This document shows positions 6,229-44,488 of a DNA stretch of 45,499 nucleotides, piece after piece (the first letter of the stretch is position 1; the number at the start of each line of letters is the position of its first letter). The position numbers and the translations under genes were made by a program. The stretch is from Candidatus Humicultor tengchongensis (lineage in GTDB: Bacteria > Sysuimicrobiota > Sysuimicrobiia > Sysuimicrobiales > Humicultoraceae). The notes beneath the pieces were generated by a model. That model worked only from the letters and a program-made list of their open reading frames with translations, ran no database searches and was not told where the DNA came from. The DNA lies in assembly GCA_031459715.1 (NCBI GenBank), contig JAVKIA010000019.1, forward strand, positions 1 through 45,499, read 5' to 3'.

Positions 6229-6234
6229 CGACGG

Positions 6235-7137: not shown

Positions 7138-7219
7138 GGCCCCCGCCTATCTTCCCCCCCGCACGGCCGGGGGCTCCCCCGGCCGGCTGCGCCGGACGGG
7201 AGAGCCCCCGCGTCTTCCC

Positions 7220-8395: not shown

Positions 8396-8611
8396 GAAGA
8401 TCACCCCCTGCTATCGTCTGCCGTGCTCGATCCACAGGTGGGAGGGAGTGCCTGGCGCTGCCGTGGGAGGGCCTGCCCCGCGCTGCGCCGGCACGGCTAC
8501 TGAACTCAATGCTCGCATGGCGCCCCTCGTCCCGTCAAAGGGAAGGAAAGGGAGTCTCCGGATTCGGGGCGGCCTCCCGGTGCCGGGGCAGGGTCCGGCC
8601 TGGCGCCGCCG

Positions 8612-9574: not shown

Positions 9575-9576
9575 GG

Positions 9577-10905: not shown

Positions 10906-10957
10906 GCCGGGCCCCCGGGGTCATGGTCCCATTCTACACAACTCGGTCCAGGAAGGC

Positions 10958-11941: not shown

Positions 11942-11946
11942 CGCCC

Positions 11947-13050: not shown

Positions 13051-13063
13051 ACGGCTCCCCCCG

Positions 13064-23378: not shown

Positions 23379-24001
23379 TCCGCCAGCCAGCGGACCTCCT
23401 CCCCGCCCCCCGGCCGCACCGCACCGCCCGCCCCCAGGCTCTCCACAGCGCCGCCGCCCGGGCCGCCGCGCTGCAGCACCGCCCGCACGTAGCCCACCAG
23501 GCCCCCGCTGGCCAGCAGCCGCTGCATGAATTCGGGCACGGGCGTGGCGGGGTAGGTCTCGTCTCTGGTCAGGTTGACGATGCGCCCCCGCTGCAGGTCG
23601 CAGAGCAGCTCGTCCCCGTCCCGCACCCGGTCGCGGGCCTTGGGCGACTCCAGCAGGGGCAACCCGATGTTGAAGGCGTTGCGGTAGAAGATGCGGGCAA
23701 AGGAGCGGGCCACGATTGCGCCCACCCCCAGCGCCCGGATGGCTATGGGGGCGTGCTCGCGGCTACTGCCCTGGCCGAAGTTCTCGCCGGCCACCAGGAT
23801 GTCGCCGGGACGGATGCGCTCCCGTAGCGTGGGATCCAGGTCCTCGAAGACGTACCGCGCCAGCTCCCGGGGATCGCTGGTCACCAGGTAGCGGGCCGGT
23901 ATGAGCACGTCGGTGTCGATGTGGTCGCCCAGGGTGTGGGCCCGTCCGCGCACCTGCAGGGAGCCGCCGGCACCGGCGTCGTCTCTCCCGGCCCCGCTCA
24001 T
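23357..24001 (-). CDS. leuD: 3-isopropylmalate dehydratase small subunit
   Basis: It is the C-terminal 214 aa of the 562-aa track ORF: MSGAG...LGDHIDTDVLIPARYL...GENFGQGSSREHAP. The ATG overlaps the leuC TGA (ATGA). Confidence 0.9.
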   Translation of the reverse strand: MSGAGRDDAGAGGSLQVRGRAHTLGDHIDTDVLIPARYLVTSDPRELARYVFEDLDPTLRERIRPGDILVAGENFGQGSSREHAPIAIRALGVGAIVARSFARIFYRNAFNIGLPLLESPKARDRVRDGDELLCDLQRGRIVNLTRDETYPATPVPEFMQRLLASGGLVGYVRAVLQRGGPGGGAVESLGAGGAVRPGGGEEVRWLAECIQEIF

Positions 24002-25278
24002 ACCGGCACCGCCTCCCGCACAACTTCGTCGGGGTGGGCCAGACAACCCCGCACCGCGGAGGCCGCGGCCACCGCCGCGTTGGCCAGGTAGACCCGGCTG
24101 CCCCGGTGCCCCATCCGCCCGATGAAGTTGCGGCTGCTGGTGGAGACGCACACCTCGCCTTCCGCCAGCACCCCCATGTGCCCGCCGATGCAGGGCCCAC
24201 AGGTGGAAGTGCTGACTGCGGCGCCCGCTTCCAGGAAGACCTGGATCAGCCCTTCCTCCAGCGCCTGGCGGTAGATGCCGGGGGTGGCGGGGATGACCAG
24301 CAGCCGCGTCTGTGGGTGCACCCGCCGCCCGGCCAGGACGCGGGCGGCCAGCCGCAGGTCCTCCATCCGCCCGTTGGTGCAGGTGCCGATGAAGCACTGG
24401 TCGACGCGGATCCCGGCCGCCTCGCGCACGGGGACCACGTTGCCGGGCGAGGAGGGCGCGGCCACCAGCGGCTCCAGACGGGAGACGTCGTAGCGGCGCA
24501 CCTCCGCGTAGGTGGCGGCCGGGTCCCGGTGGTGCACGGTGAAAGGACGGCGGGCGCGGGGTCGGATCCAGGCCAGCACCGTCTCGTCGGCCTCCATGAT
24601 GCCGTTCTTCGCACCGGCCTCCACCGCCATGTTGGTGATGGAGAAGCGCTCGTCCATGGTCAACTGCCCCAGGGCCTCGCCGGCGAACTCCATGGCGGCG
24701 TAACGGGCGCCGTCCACCCCGATGTCGCCTATGACCCGCAGGATCAGGTCCTTGCCGGTGACCCAGGGCTGCAGCCGCCCGGCGAAGAGGTAGAGCACCG
24801 TCTCCGGGACGCGCAGCCACAGGCGGCCCAGGGCCATGGCCGCGGCCAGGTCCGAGGAGCCCACCCCGGTGGCGAAGGCACCCAGCGCCCCGTGATTGCA
24901 GGTGTGGGAGTCGGCCCCCAGAAAGACGTCGCCTGGGCCGACGAACCCCTCCTCGGCCAGAAGGACGTGGGCCACCCCGGTGCGCCCTATGTCGTAAAAG
25001 TGGGGCAAGCGGTGGCGGCGCACGAAGGCCCGCGTCACCGCGCACTGCTGGGCGGAGGCGATGTCCCTGGCCGGGACGTAGTGGTCGAAGACGAAGGCCA
25101 CCCGGTCCGGGTCAAAGACCCGCTCCGCGCCCATGCGCTCGAACTCCTGGATGGCCAGCGGGGCGGTGATGTCGTTGGCGAAGACGAAGTCCACGCGCGC
25201 CTCGATCAGGTCCCCCGGGCGCACGGTGGCCGCCCCCGCATGGGCGGCCAGGATCTGCTCGGTCAGGGTCAGCCCCAC
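23998..25278 (-). CDS. leuC: 3-isopropylmalate dehydratase large subunit
   Basis: 426 aa. Aconitase-family motifs: GADSHTCNHGALGAFATGVG, CFIGTCTNGR, TSTCGPCIG. Confidence 0.9.
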   Translation of the reverse strand: MGLTLTEQILAAHAGAATVRPGDLIEARVDFVFANDITAPLAIQEFERMGAERVFDPDRVAFVFDHYVPARDIASAQQCAVTRAFVRRHRLPHFYDIGRTGVAHVLLAEEGFVGPGDVFLGADSHTCNHGALGAFATGVGSSDLAAAMALGRLWLRVPETVLYLFAGRLQPWVTGKDLILRVIGDIGVDGARYAAMEFAGEALGQLTMDERFSITNMAVEAGAKNGIMEADETVLAWIRPRARRPFTVHHRDPAATYAEVRRYDVSRLEPLVAAPSSPGNVVPVREAAGIRVDQCFIGTCTNGRMEDLRLAARVLAGRRVHPQTRLLVIPATPGIYRQALEEGLIQVFLEAGAAVSTSTCGPCIGGHMGVLAEGEVCVSTSSRNFIGRMGHRGSRVYLANAAVAAASAVRGCLAHPDEVVREAVPV

Positions 25279-25287
25279 CGCCGGACC

Positions 25288-26463
25288 TCAGGAGCGCACG
25301 CCGCCAGCGGCGCTGTGCACCTCCCTGGCCAGCGCCACCAACTCCTCCACGGTCACCCGCTTGCGCCGGTCGGCCAGTGCCTTGAAGGCGGCGAAGGCCC
25401 GCTCCAGCGCCTCCTCCGGCAGGTGCACCCCCTGCTGGGCCAGGACGTGAGCGAAGGCGTGCCGGCCGGAGTGCTTGCCCATCACCAGCCTGGTGGCCGG
25501 CACCCCCACGTCCTCGGGCCGCATGATCTCGTAGGTCAGAGGGTTGACGATCACCCCGTGCTGGTGGATGCCGGCCTCGTGGGCGAAGGCATTGGCACCC
25601 ACGATGGCCTTGTTGGGCGGTACGGCGACCCCGGTGATCGCCTCCAGCGTGCGGCTGGCTCCGTAGATTCCCTGCGTCCGGACGCCGACCTCCACCCCGA
25701 AGACGTCGCGGCGCACCACCAGCGCCATGACCACCTCCTCCAGGGCGGCGTTGCCGGCGCGTTCCCCGATTCCGTTGACGGTGCACTCCACCTGCCGGGC
25801 GCCGGCCTGCACCGCCGCCAGGGAGTTGGCCACGGCCAGCCCCAGGTCGTCGTGGCAGTGGACGCTTACCGTCACCCCATCGATCCCGGGAACCTCCGCC
25901 CGCACCCGGCGCACCAGGGCGGCGAACTGGTCGGGCGTGGCATACCCCACGGTGTCGGGGATGTTGATGGTCGTGGCCCCTGCAGCCACGGCGGCGGCGA
26001 AGACCCGGATGAGGAAGTCCGGATCGGACCGGCTGGCGTCTTCCGCGGAGAACTCCACCTCGGGAGCATAGCGGCGGGCGCGGCGGACCGCCGCTGCCGC
26101 ATCGGCCACCACCTCGTGGGGGGTCTTGCGCAGCTTGCTGCGCATGTGCACCTCAGAGGTGGCGATGAAGGTGTGGATGCGTGGCCGCTTAGCCCCCCGC
26201 AGCGCCTCCGCCGCGGCATCGATGTCCTCGGGGGCGGCGCGGGCCAGGGCGGCGATCACCGGGCCGCGCACCGCCCGGGCCACGGCGGCGACGGCCGCGC
26301 CGTCGCCCGGGGAGCTGGCGGGGAAGCCGGCCTCGATGACGTCCACCTGCAGCTCCGCCAGCGCCCGGGCCATGGCCACCTTCTCCTCAAGGGTCATGGA
26401 GAAGCCGGGCGACTGCTCTCCATCGCGCAGCGTGGTATCGAAGATGGCGACGCGGTCGGCCAC
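25288..26463 (-). CDS. leuA: 2-isopropylmalate synthase, short form (catalytic TIM-barrel plus subdomains, no C-terminal LeuA-dimer regulatory domain)
   Basis: 391 aa. [35 protein letters not shown], and HxH (HEAGIHQHG). GTG start. The operon position argues for LeuA rather than NifV or CimA. Confidence 0.75.
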
Positions 26464-26468
26464 GGTGG

Positions 26469-27596
26469 CTACCTCCCCGCGGGGGCGCGCGCAGATGCCG
26501 CCGCACCCGGGGAAGGGGCGGCGGCAGGCTCGCCCGATGCTGAAGCCACAGCGGCGGCGGCCCGTTCGCCGGGACCCGGAGACGGTGCAGCGCCGGGGAC
26601 CTCTACCCGGCGCAGCCAGGGCATCATGGCCCGCAGGCGGCGGCCCACCTCCTCAATGGGGTGGCGTGCCTCCTCCGCCCGGCGGGCCTCCAGGACCGGG
26701 CGCCCGGCCTGGTTCTCCAGGATCCACTCCCGGGCGAAGGTGCCGTCCTGCACCTCGCGCAGCAGACGGCGCATCTCCTGCCGCGTGGCCTCCGTGATGA
26801 TCCGCCGCCCGCGGGTCAGGTCCCCGTACTCGGCGGTGTTACTCACCGAGTAGCGCATCCAGGCCAGCCCCCCCTCGTAGAGCAGGTCCACGATCAGCTT
26901 CAGTTCGTTGAGGCACTCGAAGTAGGCGATCTCCGGCTGGTAGCCCGCCTCCACCAGGGTGTCGAAGCCCGCCTTGATCAGCTCGGTCACCCCGCCGCAG
27001 AGGACAGCCTGTTCGCCGAAGAGGTCGCTCTCCACCTCCTCGCGGAAGGTGGTCTCGATGACACCGGCCCTGGTGCAGCCGATGCCGCGGGCGTAGGCCA
27101 GGGCCAGCGCCTGCGCGCTCCCGGTGGCGTCCTGGTGCACGGCCAGCAGCGCGGGGACGCTTCCCCCTTCCGCAAACATCCGCCGCAGGAGGTGACCGGG
27201 TGCCTTGGGGGCCACCATGAAAACGTCCACGTCGGGCGGGGGGACTACCTGGTGAAAGTGGACGGCAAACCCGTGGGAGAACCCCAGGGCCTGACCGCCG
27301 CGCAGGCGGGGAGCAATCTCCTCGCGGAACACCTGCCCCTGGCGCTCGTCGGGGATGAGGACCTGCACCAGGTCCGCCTCCGCCACTGCCTCGGACACCG
27401 TGCGCACGCGGAACCCGTCGGCCTCCGCCCGGGCCCAGGAGCGGCTGCCGCGGAAGAGGGCCACCGTCACCTGCACGCCGTTGTCGCGCAGGTTCTGCGC
27501 CTGGGCGTGCCCCTGGCTGCCGTACCCCACCACCGCCACCCGCCGCCCCTCCAGGGGTGCCAGGCTGGCGGCGTCGTCGTAGTAGATCCTGGCCAT
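26469..27596 (-). CDS. ilvC: Ketol-acid reductoisomerase (class I) with a ~45-aa Ala/Pro-rich C-terminal tail
   Basis: 375 aa. [21 protein letters not shown], and ...[11 protein letters not shown]... Confidence 0.9.
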
Positions 27597-27654
27597 AGGC
27601 CTCTCCTCCTTAAACCGGGTTAACGTGATCTGCGCCTCCCGGGCGGCCCGGCTC

Positions 27655-28185
27655 CTACGTGGTCTGCGACCCCCGGGCCAGGGCCACCCGCCCCGTGCGC
27701 ACCATCTCCCGGATGCCGTGCCTGCGCAGCAGCGCCTGCAGGGCGTCGATCTTGTCCGGCTTGCCGCTGACTTCCACCACCACAGTGTGTTCGCCCACGT
27801 CCACCACCCGGGCGCGGAAGATCTGGGCCACGTGCAGTACCTCTTGGCGCGTGCCCGGGGTGACGCTGACCTTGATCAGGGCCAGCTCCCGCTCCACCGT
27901 GTCGCAGCCGGTGAGGTCGTGGACGCGGCGCACCTCCAGGATCTTGTTCAGGTTCTTCACCACCTGCTCCGCCTGCTCGTCTCCCTCCAGGACCACCAGC
28001 ATGCGGGAGATCCGCCGGTCGTCGGTCACCCCTACGGAGAGGCTGTGGATGTTGTAGCCGCGGCGGCGGATCAGCCCGGCAATCTTGGCCAGCACGCCGG
28101 GGCTGTTCTCCACCAGCAGCGAAATGCTGCGGACCGTAGTCGGAGGCTGGCCGTTGGGCTGCCGCCGGATGCGGGCGCCATCCAT
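27655..28185 (-). CDS. ilvN: Acetolactate synthase small (regulatory) subunit
   Basis: It is the C-terminal 176 aa of the 387-aa track ORF. It has an ACT domain ([32 protein letters not shown]). The ATG overlaps the ilvB TGA (ATGA). Confidence 0.9.
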
Positions 28186-29978
28186 CACTCCAGAATCATC
28201 TCCTTCACCGACTGCCCGGAGGGGATCATCGGGAAGCAGTTCTCCTGGGGGTCCACCAGGACGTCCAGCACCACAGGCACATCCGACACCTGCAGCGCCC
28301 AGGCCACCGCGTCCTCCACCTCCTCGGGGCGGCGCACGGTGCGCCCCGCGGCGCCGAAGACCTGGGCCAGCCGGGCGAAGTCGGGGTTCTGCAGCATGAC
28401 GTGGGAGTAGCGCTGGCGGTAGAAGAGCTGCTGCCACTGCCGCACCATGCCCAGGGAGCCGTTGTTGATGATGACCACCTTCACCGGGAGGCGCCACTCC
28501 ACCGCCGTGATCAGGTCCTGCAGCGTCATCTGGAACCCACCGTCGCCCACCAGCGCCACCACCGTGCGCTGCGGGCAGGCCAGCTGCGCCCCTATGGCTG
28601 CAGGGAAGCCGAACCCCATGGCCCCCAGGCCGCCGGAGCTGATGAAGGTGCGGGGCTCGCGGCAGCGGTAGAACTGCGCCGCCCACATCTGGTGCTGGCC
28701 CACATCCGTGACCACGATGGCCCTTTCCTGGGTGAGGCGGGCTACGGTCTCGCAGACGAACTGGGGCTTGATCACCTGGTCGCCCTGGCGGTAGCGCAGC
28801 GGGTAGCGCTCTCGCCACTCCTGGATCTGGCGCAGCCAGGGCTCGATCTGCGGCGGAGCCGTGATGCGCTCCACCAGGGCCGCCAGCACCAGCTTCGCGT
28901 CGCCCACGATGGGGATGTGCGCCGGCTTGTTCTTACCGATCTCCGCCGGGTCGATGTCGATGTGGATGAAGCGGGCGCGGGGGGCGAAGTCCGCCAGGCG
29001 CCCGGTCACGCGGTCGTCGAAGCGCACCCCCACCGCCAGGATCAGGTCGGCCTCGTTAATGGCGTAGTTGGCATACGCGGTGCCGTGCATCCCCAGCATG
29101 CCCAGACAACGGGGATGGTGCTCGTCGATGGCACCTTTGCCCATCAGGGTCACGGTGACGGGGATCCCCGTGCGCTCCACCAGGCGGGTCAGCTCCGCGG
29201 AGGCCCCCGCGGAGATCACCCCGCCGCCGGCATAGATAATGGGCCGCTCTGCTCCCTGCAGGGCCTCGGCCGCGGCGGCGATCTGGGCGGCGTTGCCCTC
29301 GCGGTGAGGGCGGTAGCGAGCGGTCACGTCTTCCACGGGGCGGGGGACGACCCGGGCCTGGGCCACATCGCGCGGCACGTCCACCAGCACCGGCCCCGGC
29401 CGGCCCGCGGCGGCCACGTAGAAGGCTTCGGCGATGGCCCGGGGCAGGTCGGCGGCATCCCAGACCTGGTAGGCGTGCTTGGTCACCGGCATGGTGATGC
29501 CGATGACGTCGGCCTCCTGGAAGGCGTCCCTCCCGATGACCGCGGTGGGCACCTGGCCGGTGATGGCCACCACCGGCACCGAATCCATGTGGGCGTCGGT
29601 CAGGCCGGTGACCAGGTTGGTGGCTCCCGGCCCGGAGGTGGCCATGCACACCCCCACCCGCCCCGAGGCCCGGGCGTAACCCACTGCTGCGTGGGCGGCC
29701 ACCTGCTCATGGCGAACCAGGACGTGCCGCAGGTCGGCGGCGTCGTAGAGGGCATCATAGATGGGTAACGAGGCGCCGCCGGGTATGCCAAAGATCACCG
29801 CAGCACCGGCCTGACGCAGGGCCTCGACCAGGAGCTCGGCCCCGGACCGGGTGACCTCCCGCCCGGTTGGGGCCAGCTCGCCTCGGGAGCGGCCCAATCG
29901 CGAACGGATTGCTGCCCGCGAGCCAGCCCCGTCTCCTGAGGGTGTGCGCCTGCCTGTGCGGGATGCGGTTACCGTCAT
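28185..29978 (-). CDS. ilvB: Acetolactate synthase large (catalytic) subunit
   Basis: The track ORF is 634 aa. An internal ATG (MTVTAS...) has a GGAGGG SD 6 nt upstream, giving 597 aa. TPP/FAD motifs: GIPGGASLPIYDAL, GDGGFQM. Confidence 0.9.
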   Translation of the reverse strand: MTVTASRTGRRTPSGDGAGSRAAIRSRLGRSRGELAPTGREVTRSGAELLVEALRQAGAAVIFGIPGGASLPIYDALYDAADLRHVLVRHEQVAAHAAVGYARASGRVGVCMATSGPGATNLVTGLTDAHMDSVPVVAITGQVPTAVIGRDAFQEADVIGITMPVTKHAYQVWDAADLPRAIAEAFYVAAAGRPGPVLVDVPRDVAQARVVPRPVEDVTARYRPHREGNAAQIAAAAEALQGAERPIIYAGGGVISAGASAELTRLVERTGIPVTVTLMGKGAIDEHHPRCLGMLGMHGTAYANYAINEADLILAVGVRFDDRVTGRLADFAPRARFIHIDIDPAEIGKNKPAHIPIVGDAKLVLAALVERITAPPQIEPWLRQIQEWRERYPLRYRQGDQVIKPQFVCETVARLTQERAIVVTDVGQHQMWAAQFYRCREPRTFISSGGLGAMGFGFPAAIGAQLACPQRTVVALVGDGGFQMTLQDLITAVEWRLPVKVVIINNGSLGMVRQWQQLFYRQRYSHVMLQNPDFARLAQVFGAAGRTVRRPEEVEDAVAWALQVSDVPVVLDVLVDPQENCFPMIPSGQSVKEMILE

Positions 29979-30370
29979 GCTCTGCCCTCCGGTGAAAACA
30001 AAATGAGCCACCCGTAAGGACGGGCAGCTCCCGTGGTACCACCTTACTTCCGGGGCCCAGAGGGGCGGGGCGGAGATCGCACCGCACATCGCGTGCGGGC
30101 CCGGCCCTGCCCGGAGACCCGGAACTCTTTGCCCGCTATCGGGGGCGAGGACGGCGGAACCTAGTCCCGGGGGACGTCGGTCCCGCGGCTCGGGGACGAG
30201 TTCGTGCGGTCACCGCGGCGGCCAGCTCCCACCTGCCCTGGCTCTCTCCACGCCGCGCGCCGCCTACTGCTTCCCCTCATCGCCGATAAAGCCATAAAGC
30301 CGGCCGGGCCGTCAAGCACGAAAGCCTGAGGCGACAGATTTCACGAGGAACCTCCCCCTCAGGCTTCTGT
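29979..30370 (-). promoter_or_regulatory. Candidate T-box riboswitch leader of the ilv-leu operon (tRNA-Leu, CUC specifier)
   Basis: In the minus-strand RNA, GUAAGG-UGGUACC-ACGGG-AGCUG-CCCGU-CCUUAC forms helix A1, a 7-nt bulge carrying UGGU that could pair the tRNA NCCA end, and helix A2. It resembles the T-box consensus AGGGUGGNACCGCG. A stem-I candidate (AAGCCUGAGG...CCUCAGGCUU) contains GUGA and then CUC-A, the same Leu specifier as the B. subtilis ilv-leu leader. Confidence 0.6.
29995..30030 (-). terminator. Intrinsic terminator of the T-box leader (competes with the antiterminator)
   Basis: The RNA AGCUGCCCGU-CCUU-ACGGGUGGCU forms an ~8-bp stem with an internal mismatch, followed by CAUUUUGUUUU. 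It lies ~25 nt upstream of the ilvB SD. Confidence 0.5.
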
Positions 30371-35564: not shown

Positions 35565-35867
35565 ATGGGGACCGAGACCACCGGCGTCAGGCTTGCCCGG
35601 CTGGAAGGCGCCTACGAGCAGATTGACAGGCGCCTGGGCACCATCGAGGGGCGCCTGGCCGTGCTGGAAGGCAAGGTGGACGCCGGGTTCGCCCGACTCG
35701 ACGCCAAGATCGGCGGGAAGATCGACGCGCTCGCCTCCGAGCTGCGGGAGGCGATCGTGCGTACCAACGCCCGGATGGATGCCCTGGGCGCCCGTCTGAA
35801 CACCGCGATGTTTGGCATCGTGGCCGCCGTCCTGGTTCCCATCCTCCTGCGCCTTTTCTGGCCCTGA
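35565..35867 (+). CDS. Small coiled-coil protein with a C-terminal transmembrane helix (XhlA/haemolysin-XhlA-like)
   Basis: 100 aa. Heptad-like LARLEGAYEQIDRRLGTIEGRLAVLEGKVDAGFARLDAKIGGKIDALASELREAI followed by MFGIVAAVLVPILLRLFW. G/C-rich codon third positions are consistent with genuine coding. No holin or lysin lies nearby. Confidence 0.5.
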   Translation: MGTETTGVRLARLEGAYEQIDRRLGTIEGRLAVLEGKVDAGFARLDAKIGGKIDALASELREAIVRTNARMDALGARLNTAMFGIVAAVLVPILLRLFWP

Positions 35868-37169: not shown

Positions 37170-37302
37170 CAGGACCTCCTCCACCGCTCTGTCTCCACTC
37201 TCCGTACGTTGCCCGCCCGGACGGCAGAAGTCAACCGGATCCCTCTTGACAACCGCCGCGGAGGTGCTACTTTTTTGGGATAAATAGAGTGCAGTTGGCC
37301 TG

Positions 37303-37351
37303 AGGCCGCGACGCCTCTCAAGCGAAGGGGTCGCGGCCTTTCGCTTTTCGG
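37303..37351 (+). terminator. Stem-loop plus U-tract in the amtB leader (candidate attenuator/terminator)
   Basis: A perfect 10-bp stem, AGGCCGCGAC / GUCGCGGCCU, encloses an 18-nt loop. UUCGCUUUUCGG follows. It sits ~100 nt upstream of the amtB ATG, in a divergent intergenic region. Confidence 0.45.
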
Positions 37352-37450: not shown

Positions 37451-38893
37451 ATGGCCTTGCCGGGAAAGCCAGAGCGCGCGGGACGTATGTGGCTGGCCGC
37501 AGCCCTCGGCCTGCTGGTCGCAGGCTCCGCCGCAGCACCCGCCCTGGCCGCCGATCCGTCCGGGAGCGCCACCCTGGCCCGTCAGCCCGAGGCCGCCGTC
37601 AACTTCACCTGGACGCTGGTGGCCGCCTTCCTGGTCTTCTTCATGCAGGCGGGGTTCGCCCTGCTGGGTGCAGGGCTGATCCGCTCCAAGAACACGGTCA
37701 ACTACCTGACCAAGAGCTTCATGGACTTCTGCATGGCCTCGCTCTCCTTCTGGGCCTTCGGCTTCGCCCTGATGTTCGGCGGCTCCAGGCTGGCCCCAGG
37801 CCTGGAGGCCGGAGGCACCCTGGCGGGCTTCTCCGGATTCTTCCTGGCCCGCGGGAGCTACGACGTCTCCGCTGCGATGCTGTGGCTGTTCCAGATGGTC
37901 TTCGCCGCCACGGCGGCGACCATCGTCGCCGGCGCGGTGGCCGAGCGCATGAAGATCACTGCTTACCTGGCCTACAGCTTCCTCATCGGCGCGCTTATCT
38001 ACCCCATCTACGGGCACTGGGTCTGGGGCGGGGGCTGGCTGGCAACCCTGCCCTGGGGCGCGGGGGCGCGGGACTTCGCTGGCTCCGGCGTCGTGCACGC
38101 CGTGGGCGGGCTGCTGGCCCTGGTCGGTGCGGCCATGACCGGTCCGCGCCTGGGGAAATTCAACCGTGACGGCACGGCCAATGCCATCCCCGGCCACAAC
38201 ATGGTCTACGCCGTGACCGGGACGTTTGTCCTTTTCTTCGGCTGGTTCGGCTTCAACGCCGGCAGCACCCTGGCGGCCACCGACCTGCGCACCGCGGTGA
38301 TTGCCACAAACACCTTCCTCGCCGGAACCGCCGGAGCCGTAACCGCCCTCTACTACGCCCTGGTCCGCAGCGGTCGGGCGGATGTGGTCATGGCCTGCAA
38401 CGGCGCGCTGGCCGGCCTGGTGGGGATCACCGCTCCCTGCGCCTACGTGGCGCCGTGGGCGGCGGTGGTGATCGGCGCCGTCGGCGCCCTGATCATGGTG
38501 GGTGTGAGCGCCTTCGTCGAGCGGGTCCTCAAGGTGGACGACCCGGTGGGTGCCATCGCCGTGCACGCGGGCGGGGGGCTGTGGGGCCTGCTCGCGGTGG
38601 GAATTTTTGCCGACGGCACCTACGGAGGCGTCCGCGGGCTGATTACCGGAGCCGGAGGTCAGATGTTGGCGCAACTGGTGAGCATCGGCGCGGTCCTGGC
38701 CTGGAGCCTGGGGACCGGGTTCCTGATGTTCTGGTTCCTCAAGGCGACCATGGGCCTTCGGGCCTCGCCGGAGGAGGAGCTGTCGGGGCTGGACGTCCCC
38801 GAGCACGGGATCGAGTGCTACCCGGAACTGCAACTGGTCCCGGTTATGGGCGCCAGTGAGCCCCCGGCGATGCGACGGGAGGTGGGAGCATGA
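37451..38893 (+). CDS. amtB: Ammonium transporter (Amt family) with signal peptide
   Basis: 480 aa. Signal peptide (AAAPALAADPS), FMQAGFALL, and the twin-His/Phe-gate region. AGGAGGG SD 7 nt upstream. Confidence 0.9.
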   Translation: MALPGKPERAGRMWLAAALGLLVAGSAAAPALAADPSGSATLARQPEAAVNFTWTLVAAFLVFFMQAGFALLGAGLIRSKNTVNYLTKSFMDFCMASLSFWAFGFALMFGGSRLAPGLEAGGTLAGFSGFFLARGSYDVSAAMLWLFQMVFAATAATIVAGAVAERMKITAYLAYSFLIGALIYPIYGHWVWGGGWLATLPWGAGARDFAGSGVVHAVGGLLALVGAAMTGPRLGKFNRDGTANAIPGHNMVYAVTGTFVLFFGWFGFNAGSTLAATDLRTAVIATNTFLAGTAGAVTALYYALVRSGRADVVMACNGALAGLVGITAPCAYVAPWAAVVIGAVGALIMVGVSAFVERVLKVDDPVGAIAVHAGGGLWGLLAVGIFADGTYGGVRGLITGAGGQMLAQLVSIGAVLAWSLGTGFLMFWFLKATMGLRASPEEELSGLDVPEHGIECYPELQLVPVMGASEPPAMRREVGA

Positions 38894-40092
38894 TCTCCGA
38901 GGTGACAGCCGCTGTCCTCTTCTTCCTCCTGCTGGCCGCGGCCTGGCTGGTCCTGCCCACGCTCTTCGTACACCGGGAGCGGGTGGAGGGAGCGGCACGG
39001 CGGGAGCGACAGAGGCAGGTGGCGGCCGAACGCGTGCACCTGGCCGGCCCCCTGCCGGGAGGTCCGCCCAGGATGCGCTCCCGGGGGGCGCTTGCCGGCA
39101 GGCTGGTGCGCAACTCCCAGGACGGGACCTCTCCAAACGGTACGACTCCCCGCTACTTCTTCGTCGCCGACGGGGGAGCCCACGGCCCGGGTGAACTGCG
39201 CGTCCCCATCTACCACCAGGTCAACCCCCGACCGGACCTGCTGCGCAAGGAGATCTACGTGGCAGAGGTGGCGGGGATGCGGCTGGAGGCCGGCAACCTG
39301 CCGCTTCTGGCAGAGATGCTATCGGTGGAGCTCGCCCGGCTGCGCCGCGGCGGCGCGCTGCCGCGCTACTGGTTCACGCTGCCCGACGGCGGCAGCGTGC
39401 CGGTATTCGCCCGGGGGGAGGGGTTTGAGGCCCGCATACCCGGGGGCCCGCACCTGGTGGAGCAGACGGTGGGCCGGCTGCGTCGCCGCCTGGCGGAGTA
39501 CCTGGCGCCGTTCGGAGAGGCCGCCCGGGGCGGTGGGCCCGAGGTCCTGGTGCTTGGAGCCGACCTGCGCTGCGCCCGGCCGGTTGCGGCCTTCGCCGCT
39601 GGGGAACTCTGGCTGCCGGTCCTGCGTATGGACGGGGCGCTGGTGGTGGAGGAGGCGGTGTATGAGCGCCAGCCCGCGGAGGAGGACGCCGCCGCGCTGC
39701 TCCCCCTGCGCCGCCGCGTCGCCGACCGCCTGGTGGCCCGGGGTCGTGTGCGCTCCCCCGCCGAAGTTCGGATCGAAGAGGTGGAACGGCACGCAGCACA
39801 GCGGCTGCGCCTGCTCCTGGGCCCGCCGGTGGGCCACCTGCCCTGCTTCGGCGCCGAGGGCGGGACGCTGGAGCAGGTTCTGCTCCCGGTCTTCCGCTTC
39901 CAGGGCGAGGTGCTCTGCCCCGGCCGGGCGGACTTCTCCGTCCTCTACGTCGGTCGGGACGAGGAGGAGTTACGCGCTCAGGTGGACGGCTCCTCATGGC
40001 GGGACGGCCTGGGCGCGGCCGCAGACCTTCTCCCGCCCGCCGCAGCAGGGCAGGCCAGGGACAAGACCAGCGCGCTGGGGAGGGTGATCTGA
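38890..40092 (+). CDS. Hypothetical membrane-anchored protein (one N-terminal TM helix; ~375-aa soluble part with internal repeats) in the position normally held by glnK
   Basis: 400 aa. The ATG overlaps the amtB TGA (ATGA) and has a strong GGAGGTGGGAG SD. Repeated segments: PRYFFVADGGAHGPGELRVPIY / PRYWFTLPDGGSVPVFARGEGFEARIPG / LPVLRMDGALVVEE / LPVFRFQGEVLCPG. I recognise no known domain. Confidence 0.7.
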   Translation: MISEVTAAVLFFLLLAAAWLVLPTLFVHRERVEGAARRERQRQVAAERVHLAGPLPGGPPRMRSRGALAGRLVRNSQDGTSPNGTTPRYFFVADGGAHGPGELRVPIYHQVNPRPDLLRKEIYVAEVAGMRLEAGNLPLLAEMLSVELARLRRGGALPRYWFTLPDGGSVPVFARGEGFEARIPGGPHLVEQTVGRLRRRLAEYLAPFGEAARGGGPEVLVLGADLRCARPVAAFAAGELWLPVLRMDGALVVEEAVYERQPAEEDAAALLPLRRRVADRLVARGRVRSPAEVRIEEVERHAAQRLRLLLGPPVGHLPCFGAEGGTLEQVLLPVFRFQGEVLCPGRADFSVLYVGRDEEELRAQVDGSSWRDGLGAAADLLPPAAAGQARDKTSALGRVI

Positions 40093-40095
40093 GCC

Positions 40096-41496
40096 ATGGC
40101 AGTGGGATGGATCGTGGCTGCGGGCGTGGTGCTGCTGGGCGCCGCCTTCGCCGTCTGGGCGCTGCGGTACACGAAGGTCGGCCCCAACGAGGTGCTGATC
40201 ATCTCCGGCCGGCGGCGCACGGTGGCGGACCCCAGGGGAGGGAAGCGCACTGTGGGCTACCGCCTGGTGCACGGCGGGGGCACCTTCGTCTGGCCAATCA
40301 AAGAGAAGGTGCAGCGCATGTCCCTGGAGCTGATGACCCTGGAGGTGCGCACCCCCGAGGTATACACGGCCATGGCCGTCCCCGTCACCGTGGACGGGGT
40401 GGCGCAGATCAAGGTGAAGGGCGACGACGCCTCCATCGCCCTGGCCGCGGAACAGTTCCTCTCCCGGTCGCGGGAGGAGGTGATGCGCACCCTGCTGCAG
40501 ACCCTGGAAGGGCACATGCGCGCCATCCTGGGGACCATGGTGGTAGAGGAGATCTACCGCGGGCGGCAGGAGCTGGCCCGCCGCGTGCGCGAGGCCGCCG
40601 CGGAAGACCTGGGGAAGATGGGGATGGAGATCATCTCCCTGACCATCCGCAACGTCACCGACAGTCAGGGCTACCTGGAGGCGCTGGCCCGCCCCCGCAT
40701 CGCCCAGGTGAAGCGCGACGCGGTGAAGGGCGAGGCGGAGGCGGAGTGGGAGGCGCAGCAGGCCCGCTTTGCCGCCGACACCCGCATCGAGGCGGCGCGG
40801 CGGGACATGGAGATCAGCAAGGCAGGCTTCGAGGCGGAGGTGAAGCAGAAGCGGGCCGAGGCCGACCTGAGCTACGACCTGCAGCGGTTCAAGATGGCCC
40901 AGCGGGTGAAGGCGGAGGAAGTGCAGGTGGGCATTGTGGAGAAGCAGAAGGCCGTGGAGCTGCAGGCGCAGGAGATCCTCCGCCGGGAGAAAGAGCTGGT
41001 GGCCACCGTGCTCAAGCCCGCCGAGGTCGAGCGGCAGAAGGTGGAACTTCTGGCGGAGGCCGAGCACTACCGCCTCAAGGCGGAGGGGCAGGGGCGGGCC
41101 GAGGAGATCCGCGCCCGGGGGACGGCCGAGGCCGCGGTGATCAAGGAGAAGGGCCTGGCGGAGGCCGAGGCCATGCTGCGTAAGGCCGACTCCTGGGGGC
41201 GGTACAACGAGGCGGCCATCAGCGAGCTATTCATCAACGTCCTGCCCCAGCTGGCCCGCGCGGTGAGCGAGCCGCTGGCCAGGACCGAGAAGATCGTGGT
41301 GGTGGGCAGCGACGGGAAGGGCACCGGTGCCTCCCGGATCACCGGCGACGTGGCCCAGGTGGTGGCGCAGCTACCGGCCGTGATCGAGGCGCTGACCGGG
41401 ATCAAGCTGCACAAGCTCCTGGAGCGGCTCCCCGCCCTGGCGGCGGCCGGCCGCAGCGAGCCCGGGGACCGCGAGGCGCCTGCCGGGGAGGTGTAG
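40096..41496 (+). CDS. floT: Flotillin-like SPFH/band-7 protein (FloT/YuaG type)
   Basis: 466 aa. N-terminal membrane hairpin, an SPFH domain (KVGPNEVLIISGRR...), a long EA-rich coiled coil (AEAEWEAQQARFAADTRIEAARRDMEI...), and a C-terminal flotillin tail. It starts 3 nt after the X stop. Confidence 0.85.
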   Translation: MAVGWIVAAGVVLLGAAFAVWALRYTKVGPNEVLIISGRRRTVADPRGGKRTVGYRLVHGGGTFVWPIKEKVQRMSLELMTLEVRTPEVYTAMAVPVTVDGVAQIKVKGDDASIALAAEQFLSRSREEVMRTLLQTLEGHMRAILGTMVVEEIYRGRQELARRVREAAAEDLGKMGMEIISLTIRNVTDSQGYLEALARPRIAQVKRDAVKGEAEAEWEAQQARFAADTRIEAARRDMEISKAGFEAEVKQKRAEADLSYDLQRFKMAQRVKAEEVQVGIVEKQKAVELQAQEILRREKELVATVLKPAEVERQKVELLAEAEHYRLKAEGQGRAEEIRARGTAEAAVIKEKGLAEAEAMLRKADSWGRYNEAAISELFINVLPQLARAVSEPLARTEKIVVVGSDGKGTGASRITGDVAQVVAQLPAVIEALTGIKLHKLLERLPALAAAGRSEPGDREAPAGEV

Positions 41497-41499
41497 GGA

Positions 41500-42975
41500 A
41501 TGGCCAAGGCCAGTTTGCGTCCTGCGACGCTCAAACCGACCACAGCCGCGGAGGTGCTGGAGCTGTGCCAGGGGACCGTGGAGGTGCGGGAGCGGCAGCG
41601 GGTGGAGGTGGTCGACCTGCGCTTCGTGGACCTGCTGGGCGCCTGGCAGCACTTCTCCATCCCGGCGGGTGAGCTGAGCGAGGAGCTGTTTGCGGAAGGC
41701 ATCGGGTTCGACGGGTCCAGCATCCGCGGCTTCCAGCACATCCACGAGAGCGACATGCTCCTCCTCCCCGACCCGACCACCGCGCGCATCGACCCCCTGG
41801 GCGATCCTCCCACCCTGGCCATCATCTGCAACGTGGTCGACCCCATCACCCGAGAACCCTACACCCGGGACGCCCGGTTCGTGGCCCAGAAGGCGGAGCG
41901 CTACCTGCGGGCCTCAGGTATCGCCGAAGTCAGCTACTGGGGGCCGGAGGTGGAGTTCTTCGTCTTCGACGACGTGCGCTTCGACCAGAACCAGCACTCC
42001 GGCTACTACTACCTGGATTCCATGGAGGGCGCCTGGAACACCGGGCGGGAGGAGAAGCCCAACCTGGGCTACAAGCCGCGGTACAAGGAGGGCTACTTTC
42101 CCGTCCCGCCCACCGACTCCCTGCAGCCCCTGCGCTCGCGCATGGTCCGCCGCCTGCTGGAGGCCGGCCTGGAGGTGGAGGCGCACCACCACGAGGTGGG
42201 CAGCGGCGGGCAGTGCGAGATCGACCTGCGCTTTACCTCCCTCACCGAGATGGGCGACCGCGTCCTCTGGTACAAGTACGTCGTGCGCAACGTGGCCCGG
42301 GCCGCGGGCAAGGTCGTCACCTTCATGCCCAAGCCGCTGTTTGGAGACAACGGCTCGGGGATGCACACCCACCAGAGCCTGTGGGCGGCGGGCGCCAACC
42401 TGTTCTTCGACCCCCGCGGCTACGCCCAGCTCAGCGAGCTGGCCATGTACTACATCGGGGGGCTGATCAGGCATACCCCGGCCCTGCTGGCCTTCTGCGC
42501 CCCCACCACCAACTCGTACCGCCGCCTGGTACCCGGCTACGAGGCGCCGGTGAACCTGGCCTACGCCCAGCGCAACCGCAGCGCCTGCATCCGCATCCCC
42601 GTCTACTCCGCCAGCCCGGGGGCCAAGCGCATCGAGTACCGCTGCCCCGACCCCACCTGCAACCCCTACCTGGCCTTTGCCGCCATGCTCATGGCCGGCC
42701 TGGACGGCATCGAGCAGCGGATAGACCCCGGGGCGCCCATGGACGTGGACCTGTACGAACTGGCCAGCGGCAACGGCGGCGCGGTCCCGCAGGTGCCTGC
42801 CTCACTCCCCGAGGTGCTGGATGCCCTGGAGGCCGACCACGACTTCCTCCTGCGCGGCGAGGTCTTCACCGAAGACCTCATCCACGCCTGGATCGCCTAC
42901 AAGCGCCACAAGGAGGTGGACGCGGTGCGGCTGCGGCCCCACCCGTGGGAGTTCGCCCTGTACTTTGACGCCTGA
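41500..42975 (+). CDS. glnA: Glutamine synthetase type I
   Basis: 491 aa. GS signatures: FDGSSIRGF, KPLFGDNGSGMHTHQSLW, NSYRRLVPGYEAP. GGAGG SD 8 nt upstream. It starts 3 nt after the floT stop. Confidence 0.95.
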   Translation: MAKASLRPATLKPTTAAEVLELCQGTVEVRERQRVEVVDLRFVDLLGAWQHFSIPAGELSEELFAEGIGFDGSSIRGFQHIHESDMLLLPDPTTARIDPLGDPPTLAIICNVVDPITREPYTRDARFVAQKAERYLRASGIAEVSYWGPEVEFFVFDDVRFDQNQHSGYYYLDSMEGAWNTGREEKPNLGYKPRYKEGYFPVPPTDSLQPLRSRMVRRLLEAGLEVEAHHHEVGSGGQCEIDLRFTSLTEMGDRVLWYKYVVRNVARAAGKVVTFMPKPLFGDNGSGMHTHQSLWAAGANLFFDPRGYAQLSELAMYYIGGLIRHTPALLAFCAPTTNSYRRLVPGYEAPVNLAYAQRNRSACIRIPVYSASPGAKRIEYRCPDPTCNPYLAFAAMLMAGLDGIEQRIDPGAPMDVDLYELASGNGGAVPQVPASLPEVLDALEADHDFLLRGEVFTEDLIHAWIAYKRHKEVDAVRLRPHPWEFALYFDA

Positions 42976-43085: not shown

Positions 43086-43727
43086 GTGAGAATGGCCGGG
43101 TTGCGCAATTTGAAGAAATTACCGGCCACCCTCTTTGGCGTGATGCTGGATGCTCCGGGCATGGATCTGGATCGCCGCATCACAGTCGTCCCGGCGGGCT
43201 GTTCTGCGCCGGCCCTAACTCCTGACGACCTCGCGGCCTACCAGCGCACAGTGGGGGAGATCCTGGACGCCCACCGCCCTGGCCTGCTGGTGGTTGAGAA
43301 CGAGGAAAACTCGGCTCTGTTCTATCGGGGCACACCTCGGGAGTACGGGGCTGAGCTTCAGGCGGCCCACTCAGGTGCAGGAGCAACTGGCACGGGGAAG
43401 GGCGCTGCTGGCGCAGTACCGGGCCGCCGGTGCCGACTTTCTCAGTATCCACCGGTACATTCCCGACCCACAGGCTCTGCGCCAGGCGGTCATCCTCCTG
43501 CGGCAGCGGTTGGGGCTCCGCTGGTAACCAATGAGATCGCCCAGCACGACCACAACCCGCAGACGACCACGGCCCTGCTGACGGCGGTGGCGGACCTGCG
43601 TTTGCCTTACGCGGTGTGGTTCAGCATCGACGCTGCACGGGCCCGGGCGCTGATGAACCCAGACGGGACGCTGCGCCCAACCGGCGAGGCCTTCCGGGCA
43701 TTCATGGCCGGCCGGACACACCGGTAA
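43086..43727 (+). pseudogene. Frameshifted hypothetical gene (possibly hydrolase-like, with a VVENEENS motif)
   Basis: Coding-like sequence switches frame 1 -> 2 -> 1. The track ORFs 43086..43727 and 43294..43527 share the locus, and a W-stop falls at 43525. Its N-terminal segment is paralogous to the partial gene at 45305. Confidence 0.4.
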
Positions 43728-43769
43728 GCAGCCGGGTAGGCTGGGCATGGGTCGGGAGGACCAGAAGCA

Positions 43770-44488
43770 GTGCGCCGGTTCCTGATCGACACCGACACCG
43801 CCTCCGACGACGCCGTGGCACTACTCATGGCCCACCGCTGGCCGGACGTGCAGGTGGACGCGGTCACCATCGTCGCCGGCAACGTGCCTGTGGAGATGGG
43901 CGCGCGCAACGCCGGCTACACCATCGAGCTGTGCGGCCAGGAGACACCGGTGTATGTGGGATGCGACCGGCCGCTGCTACGCGAGCCCCGCTGGGCCTTC
44001 TTCTTCCACGGCCCCGACGGCATGGGTGGGATGAACTACCCGCCGCCGAGTTCAACATCTGGGTGGACCCCGAGGCCGCCCGCATTGTGCTTCACTCGGG
44101 GATGCCCATCCTCATGGTGGGCTGGGAGCACTGCCGGGGCCCGGCGGCGTTCGACGAAGCCGGGATGGAAGAGGTCCGCCGCATCGGCACGCCCTACGCC
44201 CGGTTCGTTCTGGACTGCAACCGCACGGCCATCCGGGTGGCTATGGAGTGGCTGGGGGAGCCGGGACTGACGCTGCCGGATCCGGTAACCATGAGCATCG
44301 CCCTGGACCCGGCGGTATGCACTTCACGCGGCCGGCACTTCGTGGAGGTGGAGACCGCCAGCGACCTCACCCGCGGCATGACCGTGGTGGATCGCCACGG
44401 GGTGCTGAACCGGGAGCCCAACGTCGAGGTGTGCTGGGCCATCGACGTACCCCGCTGGAAGGAGACGCTGCTCCGCACGCTGCGCTGA
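43770..44488 (+). pseudogene. Inosine-uridine-preferring nucleoside hydrolase family gene, disrupted
   Basis: The N-terminal part (frame 0) reads [19 protein letters not shown]...FHGPDGMGG, which carries the DTDxxxDD signature. The C-terminal part is in another frame ([16 protein letters not shown]...). A -1 frameshift falls in a CCGCCGCC run near 44040. About 75 aa appear missing between the GxDG and AAEFNI blocks compared with RihA. Confidence 0.6.

What the first reader, a model, noticed from the sequence alone, without database searches (positions are those of the whole stretch)
37451..42975. amtB - unknown membrane protein - flotillin - glnA operon with no glnK
Four plus-strand genes are packed tightly. 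There is an ATGA overlap between amtB and the unknown, 3-nt gaps before the flotillin gene and before glnA, and a strong SD before each.

From established knowledge, amtB is almost universally followed by glnK (PII), which plugs the transporter. Here the downstream, translationally coupled gene is instead a 400-aa single-pass membrane protein with no recognisable domain. It is followed by a FloT-type flotillin (SPFH), and then glutamine synthetase I.

This suggests a PII-independent organisation of ammonium uptake and assimilation. Flotillin scaffolding could hold AmtB and GS in a membrane microdomain, and protein X could be a new AmtB-associated regulator or adaptor. In Bacillus, flotillin operons normally carry an NfeD partner. 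X is too large and has only one TM helix, so it is not NfeD-like.
Basis: partly seen in the sequence, partly recalled or inferred. Interest (0 to 1): 0.8.

Follow-up and report, generated by a model that had tools for sequence, protein, structure and literature searches.

The report
New partner protein in ammonium operon
The unknown gene between the ammonium transporter and the flotillin gene belongs to a widespread, unnamed protein family that sits in a conserved amtB-(glnK)-X-flotillin-glnA gene block in several bacterial phyla and in archaea. This points to an undescribed membrane component of ammonium uptake and assimilation.

Summary
Four plus-strand genes (amtB, X, a flotillin-type SPFH gene, type I glnA) are packed with a 4-nt overlap and two 3-nt gaps, and no PII gene lies anywhere in the 45-kb window.

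X is not an orphan. Its soluble part (residues ~70-372) is four tandem repeats of a beta-rich module. The family has 92 representative clusters, and one subfamily alone has more than 500 clusters. It has no Pfam, NCBIfam or PDB relative.

In about 48 non-redundant loci the order is amtB-glnK-X-flotillin-glnA. These come from Thermoleophilia, other Actinomycetota, Dehalococcoidia, Methanomassiliicoccales, and Armatimonadota/CSP1-3.
- amtB lies upstream in 33 of 35 loci where this can be seen.
- Flotillin follows X in about 40 loci.
- glnA follows wherever the region is visible.
- One actinobacterial clade encodes AmtB::X fusion proteins.

The window is therefore a lineage variant. glnK has dropped out of the block and X has gained an N-terminal membrane anchor. 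"PII-independent" is not the general rule, because most relatives keep glnK directly upstream of X.

Best reading, by inference only: X is a cytoplasmic-face adaptor that works with flotillin at AmtB and GS. Nothing on this turned up in the searchable literature.

The parts
37246..37273 (+). Promoter-like element upstream of amtB: TTGACA, 16 nt, then TG-n-TACTTT (an extended -10)
   Evidence: Read directly from the sequence. The -35 TTGACA and a TAnnnT -10 at the same spacing are conserved in L001, L002, L006, L013 and L027. The generic scan missed it because the -10 is a weak match.
37304..37349 (+). Conserved GC-rich hairpin (GGCCGCGAC...GTCGCGGCC) followed by a T-run, in the amtB 5' leader. 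It could be an attenuator/terminator or an operator.
   Evidence: The stem and T-run are conserved in L001 and in L002, whose X is only 50% identical. They are also present in L013 and L027, and in L006 with a different stem sequence. The 181-nt leader folds with z = -2.4. No Rfam family matches.
37451..38893 (+). amtB: ammonium transporter with an N-terminal signal-peptide-like segment and a canonical cytoplasmic C-terminal region
   Evidence: PF00909 E 1.5e-121; TIGR00836 421 bits against a cutoff of 343.
38890..40092 (+). X: N-terminal TM helix (residues ~5-27, nt 38902-38970), a charged helix, then four tandem beta-rich modules (residues ~70-372). It is a member of a new, unnamed family.
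   Evidence: No Pfam, NCBIfam, PADLOC or PDB sequence hit. 92 representative clusters in the profile search. AF2 pLDDT 85.4, pTM 0.75. Internal repeats by hhalign at 90-97% probability. Maximum 19-residue hydropathy of the N-terminal segment is 2.62.
40096..41496 (+). Flotillin-type SPFH protein (FloT-like) with an N-terminal hydrophobic segment
   Evidence: PF01145 Band_7 E 1.2e-28; PF15975 Flot E 3e-6; NF058507 FloT 377 bits, below its equivalog cutoff of 700.
41500..42975 (+). glnA: glutamine synthetase type I, beta subtype by alignment, with Tyr419 at the E. coli adenylylation position
   Evidence: TIGR00653 640 bits against a cutoff of 429; Gln-synt_N and Gln-synt_C domains.

Best explanation
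The four genes are one lineage variant of a conserved, multi-phylum nitrogen-assimilation block, amtB-(glnK)-X-flotillin-glnA.

X is a non-enzymatic protein of four repeats that acts on the cytoplasmic face of the membrane. It sits next to the cytoplasmic exit of AmtB. Together with the flotillin oligomer encoded directly downstream, it organises or regulates the transporter and the co-expressed glutamine synthetase.

In most lineages X is soluble and glnK lies between amtB and X. In the window's clade glnK is gone from the block and X carries its own N-terminal TM anchor. In one actinobacterial clade X is fused to the C-terminus of AmtB.

What is shown: the gene block, its conservation, the fusions, the repeat architecture, and the absence of known homologues. 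What is inferred: physical contact of X with AmtB and flotillin, cytoplasmic topology, a scaffold or regulator role, and co-transcription.
For: (1) Synteny. In about 48 non-redundant loci, amtB lies upstream of X in 33 of 35 where the upstream region is visible. Flotillin is directly downstream of X in about 40. glnA follows flotillin in all 28 where that region is visible. Taxa include Thermoleophilia/Solirubrobacterales, other Actinomycetota, Dehalococcoidia, Methanomassiliicoccales/Thermoplasmata, Armatimonadota-labelled MAGs and Ca. Sysuimicrobium/Tepidifontimicrobium.
(2) Rosetta-stone fusions. P0037 (748 aa), P0118 (753 aa), L023 and L028 each encode a complete PF00909 domain (1-399/399 shown for P0118 and L028), then a Pro/Ala-rich linker, then the X domain. 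The AmtB C-terminus is cytoplasmic (established knowledge), so X is cytoplasmic.
(3) Window X has its TM helix followed by HRERVEGAARRERQRQ. By the positive-inside rule this predicts N-out/C-in, the same side of the membrane.
(4) Tight coupling. The window has a -4 nt overlap and +3, +3 nt gaps with a Shine-Dalgarno sequence before each gene. Relatives have gaps of 4-54 nt or overlaps.
(5) Conserved positions are mostly structural (Y123, G129, L140, P158, P171, L226, P243), with no Cys/His/Ser catalytic-type set. This fits a binding protein.
(6) Membrane tethering of X, by a TM helix or by fusion, occurs only where glnK is absent between amtB and X. All 27 glnK-containing loci have a soluble X.
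(7) One conserved promoter-like element plus a leader hairpin lies upstream of amtB. The scan found no sigma-70-type promoter in the block, and its few weak terminator-like matches lie within amtB, at the amtB/X junction or on the opposite strand.
Against: - There are no experimental data of any kind. All sequences come from MAGs or metagenomes.
- amtB is missing upstream in two lineages: L030 (PII-X-flotillin) and L063/L064 (TM-X-flotillin-glnA). The invariant core is therefore X-flotillin-glnA, and AmtB may be a frequent rather than obligatory partner.
- X occurs without flotillin in L008-10 (amtB-X-glnA).
- The TM/fusion versus glnK anticorrelation rests on only two evolutionary events, because both clades are monophyletic in a rough NJ tree. 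Three soluble lineages without glnK are exceptions (L004, L007, L008).
- The structural model is a prediction. AFDB could not be searched, so a known fold cannot be fully excluded.
- No multimer prediction could be run.
Confidence: 0.55

Rival explanations
1. X is primarily the dedicated accessory partner of the flotillin, a functional analogue of NfeD in SPFH-NfeD operons. It would be needed for assembly or client selection of the flotillin oligomer. Linkage to amtB would then reflect only the usual client.
For: X-flotillin adjacency is the most constant feature: about 40 loci, usually with a gap under 25 nt or an overlap. The pair persists without amtB in L030 and L063/64. X occupies the upstream, translationally coupled position that NfeD takes in Bacillus flotillin operons (established knowledge). 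No NfeD gene is in the window.
Against: X is fused to AmtB, not to flotillin, in one clade. X occurs with amtB and glnA but no flotillin in L008-10. X has no NfeD Pfam match, and its model is an alpha+beta repeat protein rather than an OB barrel. This rival overlaps with the best explanation rather than excluding it.
Confidence: 0.25
2. X is a soluble signalling target or regulator in the GlnK/GS circuit. It could be a GS-binding modulator, or a GlnK-controlled protein sequestered at AmtB-GlnK as DraG or TnrA are. It would not be a structural scaffold.
For: glnK lies directly upstream of X in 27 loci, and PII-X-flotillin occurs without amtB in L030. glnA is always in the block and directly overlaps X in L008-10. 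In actinobacterial amtB-glnK-glnD operons the third gene is a GlnK modifier (established knowledge).
Against: Permanent tethering, by a TM anchor or by fusion to AmtB, is hard to reconcile with regulation through reversible sequestration. No nucleotidyltransferase or hydrolase signature and no conserved catalytic residues were found. The constant flotillin partner is left unexplained.
Confidence: 0.15
3. The clustering is a genomic coincidence or hitch-hiking, and X has a function unrelated to nitrogen.
For: No functional data exist. X has no informative homology.
Against: The same order recurs across at least five phyla, including archaea, with X sequence identity down to 20-30%. Gene fusions with AmtB exist. 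Genes are translationally coupled.
Confidence: 0.03

Closest known systems
amtB-glnK operon (AmtB channel plugged by the PII protein GlnK)
   Same: It has the same transporter family at the head of the operon. Most relatives of this block do carry glnK right after amtB. Regulation is expected at the cytoplasmic face of AmtB.
   Different: The window has no glnK anywhere in 45 kb. The block always continues with X, flotillin and glnA, which are not part of the classical two-gene operon.
Actinobacterial amtB-glnK-glnD operon
   Same: It is a nitrogen operon starting amtB-glnK in which the third gene encodes a protein acting on the AmtB/GlnK system. Many X loci are from Actinomycetota.
   Different: The third gene here is X. 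X has no nucleotidyltransferase/HD/ACT domains and no Pfam match at all.
SPFH-NfeD operons (B. subtilis yuaF-floT and yqeZ-floA; archaeal stomatin-STOPP)
   Same: A flotillin/SPFH gene is preceded by, and translationally coupled to, a membrane-associated partner gene.
   Different: X is not NfeD. It has no PF01957 match, and its soluble part is a four-module alpha+beta repeat protein of about 300 aa rather than an OB-fold. In most lineages X has no TM segment.
Membrane sequestration of DraG or TnrA by the AmtB-GlnK complex
   Same: A soluble protein encoded near or regulated with amtB-glnK could be brought to the membrane through AmtB-GlnK. Soluble X always co-occurs with glnK in the block.
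   Different: X is unrelated in sequence and in predicted fold. It can be permanently tethered by a TM helix or by fusion, and it is always paired with flotillin and GS genes.
Eukaryotic SPFH-Amt/Rh links (Flot1-dependent endocytosis of Arabidopsis AMT1;3; RHAG mutations causing overhydrated stomatocytosis)
   Same: An SPFH-family protein is functionally associated with an Amt/Rh-family ammonium transporter. The AMT1-3 link is reported in PMC6052134. The association of RHAG mutations with overhydrated stomatocytosis is in PMC3742762; the loss of stomatin from those red cells is from my own recall.
   Different: The eukaryotic links are cell-biological and have no X-like component. Here the link is a conserved prokaryotic operon.

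Membership tests
Amt/AmtB ammonium transporter (gene 1) | Full-length match to PF00909 / TIGR00836 above the curated cutoff | tested here: met
   PF00909 E 1.5e-121, covering 2-396 of 399. TIGR00836 421.5 bits against a cutoff of 343.3. The E. coli-type equivalog NF007947 is not reached (196 against 657).
PII / GlnK (as an identity for X) | Match to PF00543; trimeric ferredoxin-like protein of about 112 aa with a T-loop | tested here: not met
NfeD (as an identity for X) | PF01957 match / C-terminal OB-fold beta-barrel after the TM segment(s) | tested here: not met
   No Pfam hit for X or for any of 49 family members. The AF2 model shows four beta-hairpin-plus-helix modules. No OB-fold protein among the listed structure matches.
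Flotillin / FloT-type SPFH protein (gene 3) | N-terminal membrane segment + SPFH (Band_7) domain + flotillin C-terminal coiled-coil domain | tested here: met
   Band_7 at residues 27-217, E 1.2e-28. Flot domain at 335-418, 27.7 bits against a cutoff of 27. Hydrophobic N-terminus.
B. subtilis FloT equivalog (NF058507) | Score above the equivalog cutoff of 700 bits | tested here: not met
   376.7 bits. It is flotillin-like but not an orthologue-level match.
Glutamine synthetase type I (gene 4) | TIGR00653 above cutoff; Gln-synt_N + Gln-synt_C | tested here: met
   640.1 bits against a cutoff of 429. Both Pfam domains are present.
GSI-beta, adenylylation-regulated subtype | Insertion of about 25 residues, and Tyr at the E. 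coli Tyr397 position | tested here: inconclusive
   The alignment shows the insertion region aligned and Tyr419 at that position.
Classical amtB-glnK operon | glnK immediately adjacent to amtB | tested here: not met
   No PII gene anywhere in the window. It is met in 27 related loci.
X family (defined here) | Four tandem modules with the motifs PRYF, P-[VI]-[YF], KE-x-Y-x3-h-x-G-x2-h-E-x-GNL-x2-L and W-x-P-[VI]-F, encoded in an amtB-(glnK)-X-flotillin-glnA block | tested here: met
   Window X matches the family HMM at E 2e-98. Modules are related by hhalign at 90-97% probability. Conserved columns are; part of that conservation is by ascertainment from the pattern used.

The most novel reading that the evidence does not exclude
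X and flotillin together build a membrane-attached assembly on the cytoplasmic side of AmtB that physically couples the ammonium channel to glutamine synthetase. This would be a prokaryotic transport metabolon. GlnK would control the docking of soluble X in most lineages. In the window's lineage GlnK would be bypassed by hard-wiring X to the membrane, through its TM anchor. It would give a structural basis for the long-discussed metabolic coupling of AmtB and GS, and an ancient precedent for SPFH-Amt/Rh association.
Probability: 0.2. Interest if true: 0.9.

Novelty: new variant of a known kind. Interest (0 to 1): 0.75.

Why it matters
AmtB-GlnK is one of the most conserved regulatory pairs in prokaryotes, and its partner list is short (DraG, TnrA, GlnD-type modifiers). 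This finding adds a whole protein family. It has hundreds of sequence clusters, is common in soil Thermoleophilia, and is present in archaea. Every named database copy is labelled hypothetical, yet it is locked into the operon between glnK and glnA, always alongside a flotillin.

The finding matters in three ways:
- It gives bacterial and archaeal flotillins a concrete candidate client, which is rare.
- It makes the old question of whether ammonium transport is physically coupled to GS directly testable.
- It offers natural variants (soluble X with glnK, TM-anchored X, AmtB-fused X) that act as built-in experiments on how X reaches the membrane.

Tried and rejected
- **Diverged PII or NfeD.** Rejected. 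No Pfam or NCBIfam hit, and no PII or OB-fold match among the structure hits listed.
- **Defence-system component.** Rejected. No PADLOC hit for X or for the flotillin.
- **First AF2 run.** With only 4 sequences the model was unusable (pLDDT 46.6). It became confident only with the 49-sequence family alignment.
- **Word-indexed homologue search.** It found only 4-5 relatives, which would have suggested an orphan. The exhaustive profile search overturned this.
- **The search for related loci.** I replaced it with a hand-made degenerate DNA pattern. That returned 36 true loci and 9 chance hits.
- **AFDB fold search.** The library was unavailable.
- **Conserved N-terminal extension of cluster GS as a docking peptide.** Extensions of 10-25 aa exist, but their sequence is not conserved across phyla. 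Dropped.
- **Rfam.** No known riboswitch or leader family in the window.
- **PII elsewhere in this genome.** I could not test this. The phylum paper for the related CSP1-3 MAGs and its tables do not list glnB or glnK.
- **Literature.** Seven of the eight searches combined amtB, glnK, PII, flotillin, SPFH, band 7 and stomatin. None found a description of this block.


Full report
**1.

The window is 70% GC. Its copy of X is recorded as coming from an NCBI "Armatimonadota bacterium" MAG. It carries four plus-strand ORFs:

| Coordinates | Length |
|---|---|
| 37451-38893 | 480 aa |
| 38890-40092 | 400 aa |
| 40096-41496 | 466 aa |
| 41500-42975 | 491 aa |

- The junctions are an ATGA overlap and two 3-nt gaps, each preceded by a GGAGG-type Shine-Dalgarno sequence.
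- Gene 1 is an Amt-family transporter (PF00909 E 1.5e-121; TIGR00836 above cutoff).
- Gene 3 has Band_7 and Flot domains. It scores 377 bits on the FloT model, below the equivalog cutoff of 700.
- Gene 4 is type I glutamine synthetase (TIGR00653, 640 bits).
- Gene 2, called X here, matches nothing in Pfam or NCBIfam even at E 0.1.
- X has the codon-position GC pattern of a real gene (GC3 0.86).
- No PII gene exists in the 45.5-kb window. This holds by tblastn with three PII queries and by Pfam scans of the window's ORFs. No NfeD gene was found either.
- The surrounding genes are gltB, hom, the ilv/leu genes, a branched-chain amino-acid ABC transporter and a 2-oxoacid dehydrogenase complex.

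**2. X is not an orphan**

- The word-indexed search found only three relatives, at 80%, 80% and 50% identity. All three sit in the same amtB-X-flotillin arrangement.
- An exhaustive profile search of 1.84 billion representatives found 92 clusters at E <= 1e-3, of which 58 are at E <= 1e-10. Most are proteins of 310-350 aa that align to X residues ~70-380 and lack the N-terminal hydrophobic helix.
- None of 49 members has a Pfam domain, apart from one member with a C-terminal Cache domain fused on.
- A later search seeded with a Thermoleophilia member returned 526 further 90%-identity clusters. Every one that a source names is called "hypothetical protein".
- A profile search against all PDB sequences gave nothing below E 0.097. 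PADLOC gave nothing.

**3. Architecture of X**

- With the 49-sequence alignment, AlphaFold2 gives a confident model (pLDDT 85.4, pTM 0.75). It shows a long N-terminal helix (residues 2-52) followed by four units, each of several beta strands and one helix.
- Profile-profile comparison of the four units shows they are homologous. The hhalign probabilities are m1-m2 93%, m2-m3 96.8%, m2-m4 96.6% and m3-m4 90%.
- The best-conserved columns are Y123, G129, L140, P158, P171, L226 and P243, plus K120/E121, E133, N136 and D225. No Cys/His/Ser catalytic-type set appears.
- I read X as a binding or scaffold protein. This is inference.

**4. The gene block is conserved across phyla**

Neighbourhood look-ups of diverse family members gave these orders:

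| Loci | Gene order |
|---|---|
| L006, L007, L013-15 | amtB-X-flotillin-glnA |
| L012, L016, L017 | amtB-glnK-X-flotillin(-glnA) |
| L008-10 | amtB-X-glnA |
| L004 | amtB-X |

I then scanned one genome per GTDB species with a degenerate DNA pattern for the motif [KR]E-x-Y-x3-h-x-G-x2-h-E-x-[GA]N-h-x2-L. I annotated the hits in the sandbox with an X HMM and with phmmer queries for AmtB, PII, flotillin and GS. Of 45 hits, 36 are true X genes.

Their hosts are Thermoleophilia/Solirubrobacterales, other Actinomycetota including a Streptosporangiales MAG, Dehalococcoidia, Methanomassiliicoccales/Thermoplasmata archaea, Armatimonadota, Ca. Sysuimicrobium and Ca. Tepidifontimicrobium (phylum CSP1-3), and "Bacterium HR24".

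Across all non-redundant loci:
- amtB lies upstream in 33 of 35 where the upstream region is visible.
- glnK lies directly upstream of X in 27.
- Flotillin lies directly downstream of X in about 40.
- glnA follows flotillin in all 28 where that region is visible.

Exceptions:
- L030 is PII-X-flotillin, preceded by alaS fragments.
- L063/64 is X-flotillin-glnA with no amtB.
- L008-10 have no flotillin.
- L062 has only a flotillin remnant.

The common form of the block is therefore amtB-glnK-X-flotillin-glnA, and its most constant core is X-flotillin-glnA.

**5. Fusions**

- P0037 (748 aa) and P0118 (753 aa) come from two different contigs and differ at many positions.
- The ORFs in L023 and L028 have the same design.
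- Each encodes a complete AmtB, with PF00909 1-399/399 shown for P0118 and L028, ending in the canonical C-terminal region. A Pro/Ala-rich linker follows, and then the X domain.
- In L028 the order is amtB::X-flotillin-glnA-PII.
- The AmtB C-terminus is cytoplasmic (established knowledge). The fusion therefore places X on the cytoplasmic face and is classical Rosetta-stone evidence for a functional, probably physical, link to AmtB.
- In the window, the TM helix of X is followed by a strongly basic stretch. This predicts the same N-out/C-in orientation (positive-inside rule).

**6. What is special about the window**

- X proteins with a strongly hydrophobic N-terminal segment (19-residue hydropathy >= 1.95) are those in the window, L001-3, L006, L013-15, L027 and L040. 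In L013-15 the database gene call had cut the segment off.
- Wherever the upstream region is visible, these loci have no glnK between amtB and X. In L040 it is cut off by the contig end.
- The AmtB::X fusions likewise have no glnK in between.
- All 27 loci with glnK have a soluble X.
- This suggests GlnK may mediate or regulate the membrane docking of soluble X, and that tethering replaces that step.
- The evidence is thin. In a rough NJ tree the TM clade and the fusion clade are each monophyletic, so only two independent events are involved. Three soluble lineages lacking glnK exist (L004, L007, L008).
- No PII was found in the roughly 115 kb of TM-clade DNA that I hold: the window, L006, L013 and L027 by the sandbox search, and L063 by its recorded Pfam annotations. 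The rest of these genomes could not be searched.
- The window's GS aligns along its whole length with E. coli GlnA, including the region of the GSI-beta insertion. Classical GlnE/PII control may therefore still exist.

**7. Regulation**

- The generic scan found no sigma-70-type promoter. It found only weak terminator-like sites, all within amtB, at the amtB/X junction or on the opposite strand.
- Upstream of amtB there is a TTGACA-16 nt-TGnTACTTT element (37246-37273). A GC-rich hairpin with a T-run follows (37304-37349).
- Both elements are conserved in relatives whose X is only 30-50% identical. In L006 the stem sequence is different.
- No Rfam family matches.
- This fits one regulated transcript starting at amtB, possibly with a leader attenuator. 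That is inference.

**8. Mechanism**

My best-supported reading (confidence about 0.55) is as follows. X is a cytoplasmic-face adaptor of a conserved ammonium uptake and assimilation module. It contacts AmtB and works with the flotillin oligomer, and GS is co-expressed and possibly co-localised.

Rivals:
- X is mainly the flotillin's NfeD-like accessory (0.25). This overlaps with the main reading.
- X is a soluble GlnK/GS-circuit regulator (0.15).
- The clustering is coincidence (0.03).

The "PII-independent" framing is not supported as a general principle, because glnK is normally part of the same block.

**9. Novelty**

- Seven full-text searches combining amtB, glnK, PII, flotillin, SPFH, band 7 and stomatin found no description of this block or of X.
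- The paper describing the related CSP1-3 MAGs does not mention it.
- The known parallels are eukaryotic. One is Flot1-dependent endocytosis of Arabidopsis AMT1;3 (PMC6052134). The other is RHAG mutations in overhydrated stomatocytosis (PMC3742762); that stomatin is lost from those red cells is my own recall.
- I rate this a new variant of a known kind: the amtB-glnK nitrogen operon extended by a new protein family plus a flotillin and GS. There is a modest chance (about 0.2) that it represents a new kind of transporter-enzyme membrane assembly.

**Limits**

- Everything rests on sequence comparison of MAG and metagenome data.
- Start codons in the relatives are approximate.
- Part of the conservation seen is by ascertainment from the search pattern.
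- The counts come from one pattern-based sample of GTDB, not from a census.

Noticed in passing
window 37246-37349; L001 ~4440-4560; L002 ~30-160; L006 8415-8530; L013 8225-8310; L027 6080-6165: A conserved promoter-like element (TTGACA, 16-17 nt, TAnnnT with an upstream TG) is followed within about 30 nt by a GC-rich hairpin plus T-run in the amtB leader. The stem is invariant in five relatives and has a different sequence in L006. It could be an attenuator or antiterminator target, or a palindromic operator. L006 has an ANTAR response regulator two genes upstream of amtB. No Rfam match.
   Followed up: partly
window 43616-44488: The inosine-uridine nucleoside hydrolase gene is split over two reading frames. 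Model positions 2-92 are read in the frame of 43770-44270, and positions 158-296 in the frame of 43616-44488. The middle part is missing. This is a pseudogene or a MAG assembly error.
   Followed up: partly
window 35565-35867 (+); L001 2795-3097: A small 100-aa ORF lies between gltB and hom. It has a heptad-like charged region and a C-terminal hydrophobic tail, and no Pfam hit. A 100-aa ORF is called at the same position in the 80%-identity relative L001.
   Followed up: no
P0023 (465 aa, from the representative search): One family member carries a C-terminal dCache_1/PDC sensor domain fused to a complete X domain. This is an unexpected pairing for a protein otherwise predicted to be cytoplasmic.
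   Followed up: no
L019, L020, L046 (Methanomassiliicoccales/Thermoplasmata): The archaeal versions of the block carry two tandem PII genes between amtB and X.
   Followed up: no
L036 7482-8000; L049 1609-2985 (Dehalococcoidia): A second, divergent glnA paralogue directly follows the block's glnA.
   Followed up: no
L013-L015, gene called at 10001-10996: The database gene call for X (331 aa) starts too late. The ORF extends upstream to a GTG and encodes the conserved TM anchor (VTLEAWLGLAAFVVLF...). This also closes the apparent 300-nt gap after amtB. Annotation-based censuses would therefore miss the anchor.
   Followed up: yes
L004 5001-6880: In the most divergent X lineage (22% identity), two Band_7 (HflK/C-like) genes lie divergently about 3 kb upstream of amtB-X. 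The region downstream of X is cut off by the contig end.
   Followed up: no
window 20551-30209 and 4360-13107: The operon sits in an amino-acid and nitrogen metabolism neighbourhood. On the minus strand are ilvD, leuB, leuD/leuC, leuA-like, ilvC and ilvB, then gltB and hom. Further away are a branched-chain amino-acid ABC transporter and a 2-oxoacid dehydrogenase complex. No gltD lies next to gltB.
   Followed up: no
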